Shown: piece by piece, positions 33,001-36,000 of the stretch
Position numbering within the stretch: position 1 is the first letter of the stretch
Layout: every line of letters starts with the position of its first letter
Source of the DNA: Escherichia coli
GTDB taxonomy: Bacteria > Pseudomonadota > Gammaproteobacteria > Enterobacterales > Enterobacteriaceae
DNA: 64,000 nucleotides
Assembly (NCBI RefSeq): GCF_965641715.1
Contig: NZ_OZ282453.1
Reading direction: 5' to 3' (one strand)
Made by a program: the position numbers

Positions 33001-36000
33001 GCATACCCACAACCATGCCTAAGCATGTGAGGATGAATATTAATATTCATATTGTGACTATATTTCTTACACATCTTATACACATATTGTCTCGATATTT
33101 TATTTCCTTGACAAGAAAGAAATAAAGAGTCTTCAAAAGGTTTTTTTACTATGTTATCACGTAGTGCTAGCCATTTTTTTAATAACAGAACAGTTTCTTT
33201 TTGCAGGGGATGTACTGTGGATAATCCATTTTTTAAACGCTTGATATATATTGCTGACTCTGAAAAGTCAATGTCGCTAATCTTTAGTGCAATAAGCTCG
33301 CTTACCCTAAGGCCATGTACATATGCCATTTGTAACATGGCTTTATCTCTAATTTCATTTTTTGAACCGTTGATGGCTTCAAAAAATAACAACCATTCAC
33401 TATGAGTAATAAATTTGCGCATAATATTACCAGTTATACTAATTAAGTTAAAAAATAAACTATAAATACCAGAGCCTGGTATTATTGCTTGTTTTTTATA
33501 AGCAAATAATGAGCTGGGGTTTAAATTATGCCACTAAATGGATATTCATCAATACCCCGCCAGAGAGATAGTTGCCCAGGGGGTATAGATTATTATTAGT
33601 CAACCAATGAGCATAAATAAGCACAAGGAGGTGTGTATTGCGAATAGTAATTCAATGCCATGCTGGTAGTTTTTTTGTGGTGAAAATATTTGTACCTTTT
33701 TGTTTACGGATGAAAAATAAACAGCCATATTATTTTGGTTAATTGTTGTGTTAGTTTTAACACTCGGTGATGTTTTTTGTTATAGTGCATTAATTTTTAA
33801 ATAAAAAAATTCATACATTCATGGATGTAATATATACAAGATGCAATGTTAATTTTAGATAAAATATTAATTGCATTGGATACTTTTTAAATATGCCGAT
33901 GTTGAGCTTAATTTTATGAGGGAGTGCTATTTCGGGTTGTAGGACTTTTTTATAATCATCTTATGGGCTCTTTATATTTAAAGGAGGGTTTTGAACGATA
34001 GGTACATAACGAAGGTTGTTTATATGCGTTTACAAACTATTAATTAGATTAGGTGAATTTTAATAAATTAATCTATAATCATACAGCAACTATATGAATT
34101 ATATTATTGACTAAATGTAATTCTTTCATCATAGTTGACATGGCTATTTTATATAAATAGAGGTGATTTATGCAAAACAGAAAATTTTTAACGCATCATG
34201 AAATTAATTTACTACTTCAATCTGTAAAACAAAAGAGTTGCTCTTCACGCGATGTTTGCATGATTTTATTGGCTTATTTTCATGGTCTGCGTGTTAGTGA
34301 GCTCTTATCTCTGCAGTTGTCGGATTTAGAACTAACTACAGAAAAAATATATATTCAACGGATAAAAAATGGATTCAGTACAGTCCATCCACTTCAAAAG
34401 GAAGAGGTGATTGCAATAACAAACTGGCTGAATGAAAGGAATTCATTAAATGTTAAACATTTCAATGATAACCCGTGGTTATTTGTTTCCCGAACAGGAA
34501 AACCATTATCGAGACAACGATTTTATAACATAGTTTCTGCTGCGGGTAAAAATGCAGGTTTAAATATTAAAGTTCATCCACATATGTTACGCCATGCATG
34601 TGGTTATTCACTAGCAGATAATGGTGTGGATACCCGTCTTATTCAGGACTATCTCGGGCATCGTAATATCAGGCATACGGTAATTTATACTGCTTCTAAT
34701 TCAATGAGATTTGAAAAAATGTGGGGGAGAGGTGACGCAAAAAAGCAACATTTTGACCCAAAATGTAAACCCAATCTTTGTTTAGAAATTCTCGTATAGA
34801 AAAACATTTTTTTCTATAAAAAACATTAAATTTACTGATTTAGATCAATGTGTGGCGTCAATCTACACATAAAGAGGTAGATTTGTCTTCTTTTTAATCT
34901 CTGGCGTATAAAGCCAAAATGTAAATAACAATCAAAATTATATTCTGAATTAAAATAAATACGCAGGTTTTTTACCTGCGTTTTGTGCTATTTATAGTTA
35001 ATTAAATTAATGTTGTCAAAATGGGTCATTTTGTAAACCTGTGCCTCAAGGTTTGTCTCCCCCCGGTGTGCAAAGCAAAAGGAAATTGGGAAAGGGGATA
35101 ACAGGAAATTGATTGCATGGTTTTGATTACGACGACAAAAAATATTTTTATAATTCAAGCAATTAAGAGTATGCGTTGGCGGGGTTTTTCGTACGTGAAA
35201 GTCATCGCTGTGGACGACTATTCTTCTCTGATTCGTGATTTTGGCACATCTTGCTTTCGGGATGAGCAATCGTTGTTGTTACCTGTATTCCCTGATAATG
35301 ATTCTACTACCTGTATACGCTCACTGTATTTCATTCACCAATGGCTAAAAAGCCAGCCTGTCAATATTCCGTGCCTGGCATGGGGGGATAATGGTGTAGT
35401 TAGTAATAAAGGCATACCTTTCATACCGTGGAAATTAACAGCAGAGCAATTTTGTTTCTATATAGATAAATTTATCAATGGCTGGAGGTGCAAAAAAAAT
35501 ATTCGCGCGAATCATAAAGTTTCTTTTTTAGAACGACAATTATCCCCGAGGGAGAAAAGTATCTTTATATATACCAAGGAAGGAAAAGATATTGCATGGA
35601 TCTCGAACACCTTGGGTATATCCAGTAAGACTGTGTGGACGCATCGTCGTAGAGCTATGGATAAACTCGGGGTAAAACGTTTACATCAATTTATAAATAT
35701 TCCGCGTTCCCTTATTAGTGAAAATATTCAATTATAATGTACGTTCAAGAGTATTAGTGTTATGAATAAAATATATAAAGTCATTTGGAACCATACAACC
35801 CAAAAATGGGATGTTGTGTCAGAATTGACGAGTTGTAGAAAAAAATGTAAATCAACTCGCTTAGGAATTGCTTTATCAGCAATGGTTCTGGGGGGCGTTA
35901 TTGCAATTAATTGCAATAACGCAATGGCAGATGTCATATTGTCACCAGACTGGCGTCCGGGTACGAATAACTCGGGTGTTGGGGCTGCAACAGTAAGTGG

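What the first reader, a model, noticed from the sequence alone, without database searches (positions are those of the whole stretch)
33423..34169. 747-bp extremely AT-rich divergent region between the two recombinase genes
It is far longer than needed for two promoters and contains local palindromes: ataccag-agc-ctggtat at 33467-33483 and atacccc…ggggtat at 33552-33588. It could hold recombinase autoregulation sites, H-NS nucleation sites or a second invertible element.
Basis: seen in the sequence. Interest (0 to 1): 0.5.

Follow-up and report, generated by a model that had tools for sequence, protein, structure and literature searches.

The report
Spacer between ipuB and ipuA recombinase genes
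This is the uncharacterised, AT-rich control region between two known E. coli DNA-invertase genes (ipuB and ipuA); it is ordinary for this gene family and shows no sign of a second flip-switch, but it contains a roughly 100-bp stretch that varies far more between strains than anything around it.

Summary
The window is the published E. coli dsdC–ipuB–ipuA–ipuS–ipuR–upaE locus. Positions 33423-34169 are exactly the 747-bp spacer between divergent ipuB and ipuA, at 28.4% GC. The whole 2.7-kb island segment is similarly AT-rich. Long AT-poor-in-GC upstream gaps are normal for FimB/FimE-type recombinases: the median is 669 bp in 65 loci.

Both palindromes exist, 1-2 nt from the stated coordinates, but their number and length are at chance level. 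The first (33465-33483) is invariant in 34 sequences and sits in a 47-nt terminator-like hairpin upstream of ipuB. The second is polymorphic in one arm.

I found no Rfam hit, conserved small ORF, gene relic, ipuS/fimS-like half-site or above-chance repeat. A published genome-wide screen found no further inversions.

The spacer is present at full length in 236 of 5426 complete genomes, yet it is the least conserved part of the locus. A patch at 33561-33670 has pi of about 0.07-0.085, against 0.003-0.004 in the flanking genes.

Best reading: an ordinary divergent promoter and leader region, probably H-NS-targeted, that is mostly unconstrained. The hypervariable patch is unexplained.

The parts
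32853..33422 (-). ipuB, tyrosine-type DNA invertase (189 aa); left boundary of the spacer
   Evidence: ORF. RefSeq annotation of the identical arrangement in Nissle 1917 and CFT073. At least 99% identical in 235 of 236 genomes.
33423..34169 (.). 747-bp ipuB-ipuA divergent intergenic region (the finding)
   Evidence: 28.4% GC. Present at full length (741-749 bp) in 236 of 5426 complete E. coli genomes, with no annotated feature. No paralogue. No Rfam hit at E<=1. pi = 0.027 in 15 strains.
33423..33439 (-). 17 bp immediately upstream of the ipuB ATG (translation-initiation region, no clear Shine-Dalgarno); unusually variable
   Evidence: 5 of 17 columns are polymorphic, pi 0.057-0.072.
33440..33560 (-). 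Conserved ipuB-proximal block, inferred to hold the ipuB promoter and leader
   Evidence: 2 of 121 columns are polymorphic in 34 sequences, pi 0.002-0.003, as low as the genes. Note that 24 of these 121 bp were the search pattern for the 19 metagenome sequences.
33451..33497 (.). Imperfect 47-nt palindrome flanked by an A6 and a T6 run. It is terminator-like on both strands.
   Evidence: Flagged as terminator-like on both strands. Listed as inverted repeat I13. The 57-nt stretch 33446-33502 that contains it folds at -13.2 kcal/mol on either strand, z = -3.5 and -3.0; the stretch was chosen post hoc. The core is invariant in 34 sequences. Unique in the window and absent from 80 related loci.
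33525..33552 (-). Best promoter-like match facing ipuB (TTGATG-16-CATAAT with TG); prediction only
   Evidence: 9 of 12 matches. Hexamers invariant in 15 strains. Promoter-like sites in the region are not enriched over shuffles (13 against 16.4 +/- 4.4).
33552..33586 (.).
   Evidence: Right-arm positions 33580 (G/C/T) and 33584 (T/C) vary while the left arm does not, so there is no compensation. Fold z-scores are -1.6 and -2.0.
33561..33670 (.). Hypervariable patch between the two predicted promoters; function unexplained
   Evidence: 27 of 110 columns segregate in 15 strains (pi 0.085), and 31 of 110 in 34 sequences (pi 0.071, 16 haplotypes). Odds ratios against third codon positions are 8.8 for singletons (P=2.5e-4) and 13 for shared polymorphisms (P=6e-10). 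Variation is raised at both G/C and A/T sites. No conserved ORF, no RNA-structure signal, no paralogue.
33747..33762 (.). CRP-like site TGTGTTAGTTTTAACA (2 mismatches) overlapping the -35 of the next item; weak lead only
   Evidence: A site at 2 mismatches or fewer occurs in about 21% of shuffles. Invariant in 15 strains.
33757..33786 (+). Best promoter-like match in the region (TTAACA-18-TATAGT with TG), facing ipuA. It would give a leader of about 375 nt. Prediction only.
   Evidence: 10 of 12 matches. Lies in the quiet block 33671-33800, where 5 of 130 columns are polymorphic.
34107..34135 (+). Proximal promoter-like match facing ipuA (TTGACT-17-CATAGT), about 28 nt before the ATG; prediction only
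   Evidence: 9 of 12 matches. Hexamers invariant in 15 strains; spacer positions 34115 and 34117 vary.
34170..34799 (+). ipuA, tyrosine-type DNA invertase (209 aa, full-length form, i.e. ipuS OFF); right boundary of the spacer
   Evidence: At least 99% identical in 235 of 236 genomes.
34754..35028 (.). ipuS, the known invertible element, given for context. Its 7-bp inverted repeats are TGACCCA (34754-34760) and TGGGTCA (35022-35028), with 261 bp between them.
   Evidence: Read. Matches the description in PMC6083910: 260-bp element, distal repeat inside ipuA, 11-aa truncation on inversion.

Best explanation
The 747 bp are the shared upstream region of the divergently transcribed invertase genes ipuB and ipuA. 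They lie in the horizontally acquired, AT-rich ipu island next to dsdC.

The most likely mechanism is that of a conventional divergent promoter and leader region.
- An ipuB promoter lies in the conserved block 33440-33560. Its leader of about 95 nt carries a conserved terminator-like hairpin (33451-33497).
- One or two ipuA promoters face the other way, near 33757-33786 and/or 34107-34135.
- The AT-rich DNA (72% A+T) is probably coated by H-NS, as is usual for xenogeneic DNA and as is documented for the fimB and fimE promoters.

Most of the remaining sequence is spacer DNA under little or no constraint.

What is shown: the identity of the locus, the absence of genes, RNA families, repeats and recombinase half-sites, and the conservation pattern. 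What is inferred: the promoter positions, H-NS binding, and any role for the hairpin.
For: Locus identity.
- RefSeq annotation of the same arrangement in Nissle 1917 and CFT073.
- The published description of ipuA-ipuS-ipuR-upaE (PMC6083910).

Typical for the family.
- In 65 loci the ORF-free gap upstream of FimB/FimE-type genes has a median of 669 bp; 62% are at least 500 bp and 40% at least 747 bp.
- Gap GC averages 34% against 44% for the locus.

No other content was found.
- Rfam gives nothing at E<=1.
- Small ORFs are broken by stops or frameshifts in some strains and match no NCBIfam model.
- There is no relic of a third recombinase: the best score against an HMM of 105 homologues is -2.9, matched by 62 of 100 shuffles.
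- There is no relic of the LysR-like or AraC-like genes that sit between recombinase pairs in other genera.
- There is no paralogue in E. coli, plasmids or phages.

Conservation pattern.
- The ipuB-proximal 121 bp, including the hairpin and the best ipuB-facing promoter match, are as conserved as the genes: 2 of 121 polymorphic columns.
- The rest of the spacer is 2.9 times more polymorphic than third codon positions.

Evidence of regulated transcription. ipuA and ipuB expression is reported to fall in a pst mutant of CFT073 (reviews PMC12351708 and PMC8777976).

Against a second switch. See and PMC6458436.
Against: No transcription start, protein binding or H-NS occupancy has been measured for this spacer in any paper I could find.

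Promoter-like matches are no more frequent than in shuffled sequence (13 against 16.4 +/- 4.4).

Motifs for H-NS, IHF, Lrp, Fis, CRP, NanR, NagC and the Pho box are all at chance level.

The explanation does not account for the hypervariable patch 33561-33670, which is 4.6 times more polymorphic than the rest of the spacer (P=4e-8).

The hairpin z-scores come from a stretch chosen because it contains the palindrome.
Confidence: 0.68

Rival explanations
1. The spacer contains a second invertible (phase-variable) element acted on by IpuA, IpuB or the other Fim-type recombinases.
For: Recombinase genes of this family normally sit next to their switches. The spacer is large enough to hold one. The inverted pair 33568-33592 / 34069-34093 (25 nt, 72% complementary) encloses 476 bp.
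Against: The best inverted repeats do not exceed shuffles (P=0.88). No site lies within 1 mismatch of the ipuS core or within 2 of the fimS repeat. The arms of the 476-bp pair vary (33584, 33591, 34087) without compensation. SVRE sequencing of CFT073 overexpressing each of the five recombinases found only fimS, hyxS and ipuS (PMC6458436).

Caveats. A rare inversion about 1 kb from ipuS could be hidden under the ipuS peak. Assembly orientation is uninformative, because ipuS itself is in one orientation in all 236 genomes.
Confidence: 0.03
2. The spacer carries binding sites through which IpuA or IpuB (or the island's LuxR-type regulator IpuR) feed back on recombinase expression. For example, the invariant 19-bp palindrome 33465-33483 could be an operator just upstream of ipuB.
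For: The palindrome is perfect (8-3-8), invariant in 34 sequences, unique in the 64-kb window, and lies 43 bp from the ipuB start. LuxR/GerE-type proteins commonly bind palindromes of about 20 bp (general knowledge, not tested here).
Against: A palindrome with 8-bp arms occurs in 60% of shuffles. The surrounding 121 bp are equally invariant, so its invariance is not specific. There is no second copy near ipuR/upaE or elsewhere in the window, and none in 80 related loci. The spacer has no similarity to recombinase half-sites. The ipuS paper reports no clear phenotype for ipuR.
Confidence: 0.1
3. The spacer hides an unannotated small gene or small RNA. One candidate is the 42-codon ORF at 33600-33728 (-). 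Another is the 34-codon ORF at 33638-33742 (+), which in this window is preceded by a perfect AAGGAGGTG.
For: The 42-codon ORF is open in 13 of 15 strains. The window allele of the 34-codon ORF has a consensus Shine-Dalgarno 6 nt before a TTG start.
Against: The 42-codon ORF is frameshifted in 2 of 15 strains, and its C-terminal half changes mostly by non-synonymous substitutions. The 34-codon ORF has a stop at its second codon in 11 of 15 strains or a later stop in 2 of 15, and its Shine-Dalgarno is destroyed in the L089-L095 haplotype group. No NCBIfam hit. Variable sites split 14, 6 and 7 across the three codon phases (my count; chi-square about 4.2, not significant). No Rfam hit. Fold z-scores are -0.08 and -0.15.
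Confidence: 0.07
4. The patch 33561-33670 is a target of diversifying selection or local hypermutation on cis-regulatory DNA. Different lineages would then express the invertases, and so flip ipuS and fimS, at different rates.
For: Patch pi is 0.071-0.085, against 0.003-0.004 in the flanking genes and 0.002-0.010 at their four-fold sites. Both recent singletons (odds ratio 8.8) and shared polymorphisms (odds ratio 13) are in excess. There are multi-allelic sites, homoplasies and 16 haplotypes in 34 sequences. The excess holds at both G/C and A/T sites, so it is not a composition effect. The patch lies between the two predicted core promoters.
Against: No expression data link the alleles to phenotype. 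No mechanism for local hypermutation is evident: no repeats, no paralogue to act as a gene-conversion donor, and no structure. The genome strains were chosen by spread of spacer identity, although the metagenome sample was chosen by a pattern outside the patch and gives the same picture. Simple relaxed constraint cannot be excluded if third codon positions of these genes underestimate the neutral rate.
Confidence: 0.12

Closest known systems
Regulatory regions of fimB and fimE in the E. coli type 1 fimbrial locus (nanC-fimB and fimB-fimE intergenic regions)
   Same: Long, AT-rich non-coding DNA upstream of FimB/FimE-family tyrosine invertase genes. For fimB and fimE, promoters with long leaders and H-NS repression are established knowledge. 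The same pattern of long, low-GC upstream gaps is seen in 65 homologous loci.
   Different: ipuB and ipuA are divergent, whereas fimB and fimE are tandem. There is no detectable sequence similarity to any other E. coli region. No NanR, NagC or IHF-type sites are above chance. Nothing has been measured experimentally for the ipu spacer.
ipuS / fimS / hyxS invertible promoter elements
   Same: The spacer lies next to the same recombinase genes, is similarly AT-rich, and is large enough to hold an element of 260-320 bp.
   Different: No exact conserved inverted repeats, no half-site similarity, no published inversion. ipuS itself lies on the other side of ipuA, at 34754-35028.
H-NS-silenced xenogeneic AT-rich DNA (Navarre/Lucchini-type targets)
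   Same: GC content is 18 points below the window average. The spacer lies within a horizontally spread island whose synonymous diversity is about ten-fold lower than that of the neighbouring core gene dsdC.
   Different: H-NS occupancy was not tested. The high-affinity motif is not enriched beyond composition. A-tract phasing is not significant (P=0.15).
Recombinase-pair loci in other genera (Escherichia whittamii L002, Phytobacter L027, Limnobaculum L049)
   Same: Two FimB/FimE-type genes separated by about 1 kb.
   Different: In those loci the interval holds a regulator gene: AraC-like (287 aa) in E. whittamii, where the pair is tandem, and LysR-like (about 300 aa) in the two divergent pairs. 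The E. coli spacer has no trace of either.

Membership tests
Fim-type invertible promoter switch (fimS/hyxS/ipuS kind) | A pair of exact, conserved inverted repeats (7-16 bp) bounding about 250-320 bp | tested here: not met
   The best inverted repeats do not exceed shuffles (P=0.88). The arms of the 476-bp candidate pair are polymorphic without compensation.
Fim-type invertible promoter switch (fimS/hyxS/ipuS kind) | Half-sites resembling those of fimS or ipuS | tested here: not met
   No site within 1 mismatch of TGACCCA or within 2 of TTGGGGCCA, where shuffles give 1.1 and 1.3. The hyxS repeat was not tested because I did not have its sequence.
Fim-type invertible promoter switch (fimS/hyxS/ipuS kind) | Found in both orientations in a population | tested here: inconclusive
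   All 236 genomes and 19 metagenome contigs are collinear, but the positive control ipuS is also in one orientation in all 236. The published SVRE screen found no additional inversion (PMC6458436).
Fim-type invertible promoter switch (fimS/hyxS/ipuS kind) | Adjacent FimB/FimE-family recombinase gene | tested here: met
   ipuB and ipuA flank the region.
H-NS-bound xenogeneic regulatory DNA | GC content far below the host genome | tested here: met
   28.4% against 46.8% for the window. The whole stretch 32458-35116 is 28-35% GC.
H-NS-bound xenogeneic regulatory DNA | High-affinity nucleation motif or intrinsic curvature above expectation | tested here: inconclusive
   TCGATAAATT at 2 mismatches or fewer: 3 hits against 2.2 +/- 1.4. 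A-tract phasing at 10.5 bp: P=0.15. Shuffles keep the AT content, so this does not argue against general H-NS binding.
H-NS-bound xenogeneic regulatory DNA | H-NS occupancy, or derepression in an hns mutant | not testable with these tools
   No ChIP or hns-mutant data for this locus were found in the paper library.
Divergent sigma-70 promoter region | -35 and -10 elements facing each gene, with mapped transcription starts | tested here: inconclusive
   Candidates lie at 33552-33525 (-), 33757-33786 (+) and 34107-34135 (+), with invariant hexamers. The number of such matches is not above shuffles, and no start sites have been mapped.
Intrinsic (bidirectional) terminator | Stable G+C-rich stem followed by a U tract, on each strand | tested here: inconclusive
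   33465-33483 is flagged on both strands. The extended hairpin folds at -13.2 kcal/mol and is flanked by A6 and T6. However, the core stem has only 3 G-C pairs and the T runs lie 8-9 nt beyond it.
Known RNA families (Rfam 15) | Covariance-model match | tested here: not met
   No matches at E<=1 over 32300-35300 on either strand.

The most novel reading that the evidence does not exclude
The roughly 100-bp patch at 33561-33670, between the predicted ipuB and ipuA promoters, is a fast-evolving cis-regulatory 'rate-setter'. Under this reading, substitutions accumulate there by diversifying selection or local hypermutation about ten times faster than at synonymous sites of the flanking genes. They would retune expression of the two invertases, and so set lineage-specific switching rates of ipuS, and through cross-talk fimS.
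Probability: 0.1. Interest if true: 0.6.

Novelty: new member of a known kind. Interest (0 to 1): 0.27.

Why it matters
IpuA and IpuB flip ipuS, which controls the UpaE adhesin and IpuR, and they cross-act on fimS, which controls type 1 pili. Their expression level therefore sets phase-variation rates in uropathogenic and commensal E. coli such as CFT073 and Nissle 1917.

Nothing is published on how ipuA and ipuB are transcribed. This analysis narrows the search in three ways.
- It removes the idea of a second switch.
- It points to a conserved 120-bp ipuB-proximal block containing a hairpin.
- It flags a hypervariable patch whose alleles could be swapped experimentally.

As a genomic feature the spacer is ordinary for its family.

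Tried and rejected
1. Relic of a third recombinase gene. An HMM built from 105 homologues, run against six-frame translations, gave a best score of -2.9, and 62 of 100 shuffles did as well. Rejected.

2. Relic of the LysR-like or AraC-like gene found between recombinase pairs in Phytobacter, Limnobaculum and E. whittamii. tblastn gave only chance-level hits, all weaker than E=0.1. Rejected.

3. Coding signal suggested by apparent 3-nt periodicity of variable sites in the patch. The three codon phases carry 14, 6 and 7 sites, which is not significant, and every frame has stops in some strains. Rejected.

4. Small ORFs against NCBIfam: no hits.

5. Rfam at permissive threshold: nothing.

6. RNA structure of putative leaders and of the patch: z-scores from -0.08 to -1.9. 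Not informative.

7. Motif scans for H-NS, IHF, Lrp, Fis, CRP, NanR, NagC, Pho box, Dam, LTTR box, ipuS core and fimS repeat: all at chance level.

8. Paralogue or gene-conversion donor for the spacer or the patch in E. coli genomes, plasmids or phages: none. The single 'plasmid' hit is a mislabelled chromosome, and the single 'phage' hit is host flank in a prophage record.

9. Homology of the spacer to the E. whittamii locus: only the coding genes and a short ipuS-proximal segment align.

10. Using assembly orientation as an inversion assay. This failed its positive control, because ipuS is never inverted in 236 assemblies.

11. Base-composition explanation for the hot patch. Rejected, because both G/C sites (36%) and A/T sites (23%) are elevated.

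12. Literature search for transcription start sites or H-NS data at this locus: nothing found.
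Full report
**What the locus is.**

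The ORFs around the finding are as follows.

| Coordinates | Strand | Feature |
|---|---|---|
| 29955-31292 | - | GntP-type transporter |
| 31504-32457 | + | LysR-type regulator |
| 32853-33422 | - | tyrosine recombinase, 189 aa |
| 34170-34799 | + | tyrosine recombinase, 209 aa |
| 35117-35737 | + | LuxR-type protein, 206 aa |
| 35762-43681 | + | autotransporter, 2639 aa |

- RefSeq annotation of the collinear region of E. coli Nissle 1917 and CFT073 names these dsdX, dsdC, ipuB, ipuA, an HTH regulator (IpuR) and the 'phase-variable autotransporter adhesin UpaE'.
- This is the locus described by Battaglioli et al. 2018 (PMC6083910). There, the 317-bp ipuA-ipuR spacer contains the 260-bp invertible element ipuS, bounded by 7-bp inverted repeats, the distal one inside ipuA.
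- In the window these repeats are TGACCCA (34754-34760) and TGGGTCA (35022-35028), with full-length ipuA, which is the OFF orientation.
- The finding concerns the other side of ipuA: the 747 bp between the divergent start codons of ipuB and ipuA.
- No paper I could find says anything about this spacer.

**Checking the observation.**

- The coordinates 33423-34169 are exact.
- GC content is 28.4% against 46.8% for the window. The neighbouring genes and spacers are nearly as AT-rich: ipuB 33.0%, ipuA 35.1%, dsdC-ipuB spacer 28.4%, ipuS spacer 31.2%. The low GC is therefore a property of the island.
- The first palindrome is 8-3-8 at 33465-33483. The second is 7-21-7 at 33552-33586.
- Against 500 dinucleotide-preserving shuffles, the count of palindromes with arms of at least 7 bp (8 against 4.6 +/- 2.9, P=0.17) is not unusual. 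Nor is the presence of an 8-bp arm, which occurs in 60% of shuffles. G/C-containing palindromes are marginal (2 against 0.36, P=0.086).
- The best direct and inverted repeats anywhere in the spacer are no better than in shuffles (P=0.47 and 0.88).

**Is 747 bp exceptional?** Not for this family.

- A scan of one genome per species with IpuA returned 80 loci of FimB/FimE-type recombinases.
- In the 65 loci with enough flank, the ORF-free gap upstream of the recombinase has a median of 669 bp. 62% are at least 500 bp and 40% at least 747 bp.
- Gap GC averages 34% against 44% for the locus.

**What is and is not inside the spacer.**

- Rfam gives no match at E<=1.
- All ORFs are 42 codons or shorter. 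Each is interrupted by a stop or frameshift in some strains, or changes mainly by non-synonymous substitutions. None matches NCBIfam.
- The nearest relative outside E. coli is Escherichia whittamii, at 64-66% amino-acid identity. It has the two genes in tandem with an AraC-like gene between them. Phytobacter and Limnobaculum have divergent pairs with a LysR-like gene between them.
- The E. coli spacer shows no trace of these genes, nor of a third recombinase (HMM of 105 homologues).
- It has no paralogue in 5426 E. coli genomes even at E<=10 for the patch, and none in plasmids or phages.
- Scans for the H-NS high-affinity motif, IHF, Lrp, Fis, CRP, NanR, NagC, Pho box, an LTTR box, the ipuS core and the fimS repeat are all at or below chance. 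The ipuS core and fimS repeat have zero near-matches.
- Promoter-like matches (13) are no more frequent than in shuffles (16.4 +/- 4.4). Terminator-like matches (5 against 1.1 +/- 1.1) include the first palindrome on both strands.

**Second invertible element.** Four lines of evidence argue against it.

- No above-chance inverted repeats.
- No half-site similarity.
- Uncompensated polymorphism in the arms of the longest candidate pair.
- The published SVRE screen sequenced CFT073 overexpressing each of the five recombinases and detected only fimS, hyxS and ipuS (PMC6458436).

I tried assembly orientation as an independent check. The spacer is collinear in all 236 genomes. The known switch ipuS is also in a single orientation in all 236, so this assay has no power, and I do not count it.

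**Conservation.**

- The spacer is present at full length (741-749 bp, only 1-nt indels) in 236 of 5426 complete genomes, always on the chromosome and never annotated.
- It is the least conserved part of the locus. Against the window, ipuB and ipuA are at least 99% identical in 235 of 236 genomes. The spacer reaches 99% in only 1 of 236.

Diversity in a 15-strain alignment:

| Segment | pi |
|---|---|
| ipuB | 0.0039 |
| ipuA | 0.0029 |
| ipuB-ipuA spacer | 0.0267 |
| dsdC-ipuB spacer | 0.0158 |
| ipuS spacer | 0.0163 |
| Four-fold sites of ipuB, ipuA, ipuR and the upaE 5' end | 0.002-0.010 |
| Four-fold sites of dsdC | 0.097 |

- The dsdC comparison suggests the island has spread among lineages much more recently than the core genome diverged.
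- Variation within the spacer is patchy.
  - 33440-33560 is as quiet as the genes: 2 of 121 polymorphic columns.
  - 33671-33800 is fairly quiet: 5 of 130.
  - 33801-34169 is moderately variable.
  - 33561-33670 is hypervariable: 27 of 110 columns, pi 0.085.
- Nineteen metagenome contigs, retrieved with a 24-nt pattern outside the patch, give the same picture. In 34 sequences the patch has pi 0.071, 31 of 110 segregating columns and 16 haplotypes.
- Against third codon positions of ipuA and ipuB, the patch has an excess of singletons (odds ratio 8.8, P=2.5e-4) and of shared polymorphisms (odds ratio 13, P=6e-10). The rest of the spacer is 2.9 times more polymorphic than third positions (P=8e-4).
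- The excess holds at both G/C and A/T sites. There is no fold signal.
- The first palindrome lies in the quiet block and is invariant. The right arm of the second lies in the patch and varies at 33580 and 33584, so it is not maintained.

**The hairpin.**

- The first palindrome is the core of a 47-nt imperfect palindrome (33451-33497) flanked by A6 and T6 runs.
- The 57-nt stretch that contains it (33446-33502) folds at -13.2 kcal/mol on either strand, with z = -3.5 and -3.0. The stretch was chosen post hoc, so these values are inflated.
- The core ends 43 bp upstream of the ipuB ATG. It lies downstream of the best ipuB-facing promoter match (33552-33525), so it would be part of the ipuB leader.
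- It is unique in the window and absent from the related loci.
- I cannot tell whether it attenuates ipuB transcription, stops antisense read-through from the dsdC side, stabilises the mRNA, or is a protein operator.

**Most likely mechanism.**

- It is a conventional divergent promoter and leader region on xenogeneic AT-rich DNA.
- The functional core for ipuB is the conserved 120 bp.
- One or two ipuA promoters face the other way. The best candidate, TTAACA-18-TATAGT with TG at 33757-33786, would give a leader of about 375 nt. A proximal candidate lies at 34107-34135.
- H-NS probably coats the whole stretch 32458-35116. This is an inference from composition and from what is established for fimB and fimE.
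- ipuA and ipuB transcription does respond to physiology: expression is reported to be reduced in a pst mutant of CFT073. I found no Pho box.
- The bulk of the spacer evolves at or above the synonymous rate and so carries little sequence-specific function.
- The hypervariable patch is not explained by this model, and I record it as an open observation.

**Verdict.**

The palindrome argument does not hold, and the second-switch idea is not supported.
- The region is an uncharacterised instance of a known kind of regulatory spacer in a published locus.
- The one feature worth a follow-up experiment is the hypervariable patch between the putative promoters.

Noticed in passing
window 33561-33670 (core 33576-33658): A patch of about 100 bp with pi 0.07-0.085, 16 haplotypes in 34 sequences, and multi-allelic and homoplasious sites. 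It sits in a locus whose genes have pi 0.003-0.004. It is as diverged as four-fold sites of the core gene dsdC. No coding, RNA-structure, repeat or paralogue explanation was found.
   Followed up: partly
window 33423-33439: The 17 bp directly upstream of the ipuB start codon have 5 polymorphic columns, and no allele has a clear Shine-Dalgarno. The window/A30 allele reads AACUGGUAAUAUUAUG, where most strains have AACCGAUAAUAUUAUG.
   Followed up: no
window 31504-36169 (15-strain alignment): Four-fold-site diversity of dsdC is 0.097, while that of ipuB, ipuA, ipuR and the upaE 5' end is 0.002-0.010. All three non-coding spacers of the island are 2-3 times more polymorphic than third codon positions. 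The island seems to have spread among E. coli lineages much more recently than the core genome diverged.
   Followed up: partly
window 34754-35028 (ipuS); 236 RefSeq genomes: All 236 complete E. coli genomes that carry the island have the known invertible element ipuS in the same orientation as the window (OFF, full-length ipuA). No assembly captured the ON state.
   Followed up: partly
window 34961-34981: A perfect 8-bp-stem hairpin (ACGCAGGT-TTTTT-ACCTGCGT) inside ipuS is flagged as terminator-like on both strands. Being inside the invertible element, it would face ipuA read-through in either orientation.
   Followed up: no
L116-L118 (GenBank MG710528.1 'Escherichia phage GER2'): The phage record begins in host DNA. 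It contains the whole ipuB-ipuA spacer, places a 12-bp 'attL' inside it (about window 33771-33782), calls ipuA 'integrasse' and calls UpaE 'long tail fiber proximal subunit'. It has three 'attL' features in all. The spacer is uninterrupted there, so this attL is an annotation artefact.
   Followed up: yes
L002 (Escherichia whittamii) 721-2924; L027 (Phytobacter) 2298-4546; L049 (Limnobaculum) 2211-4549: The closest non-coli relatives of ipuB and ipuA are in tandem with an AraC-like gene between them. Two other genera have divergent recombinase pairs with a LysR-like gene of about 300 aa between them. The gene-free divergent arrangement appears specific to the E. coli island.
   Followed up: partly
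window 33964/33965: The window lacks one A that all 14 other complete-genome strains examined carry (CTTAT-GGGCT against CTTATAGGGCT), which gives 747 rather than 748 bp.
   Followed up: no
L091 and L093, locus coordinates 3696-4316: In two strains (2021CK-01784, ECA64) ipuR is annotated 78 bp shorter (start at 3774 instead of 3696). This suggests a start-region polymorphism in the LuxR-type regulator.
   Followed up: no
PLSDB record NZ_CP134663.1: A 4.9-Mb E. coli chromosome is filed in the plasmid collection. It produced the only 'plasmid' hit to the spacer.
   Followed up: no
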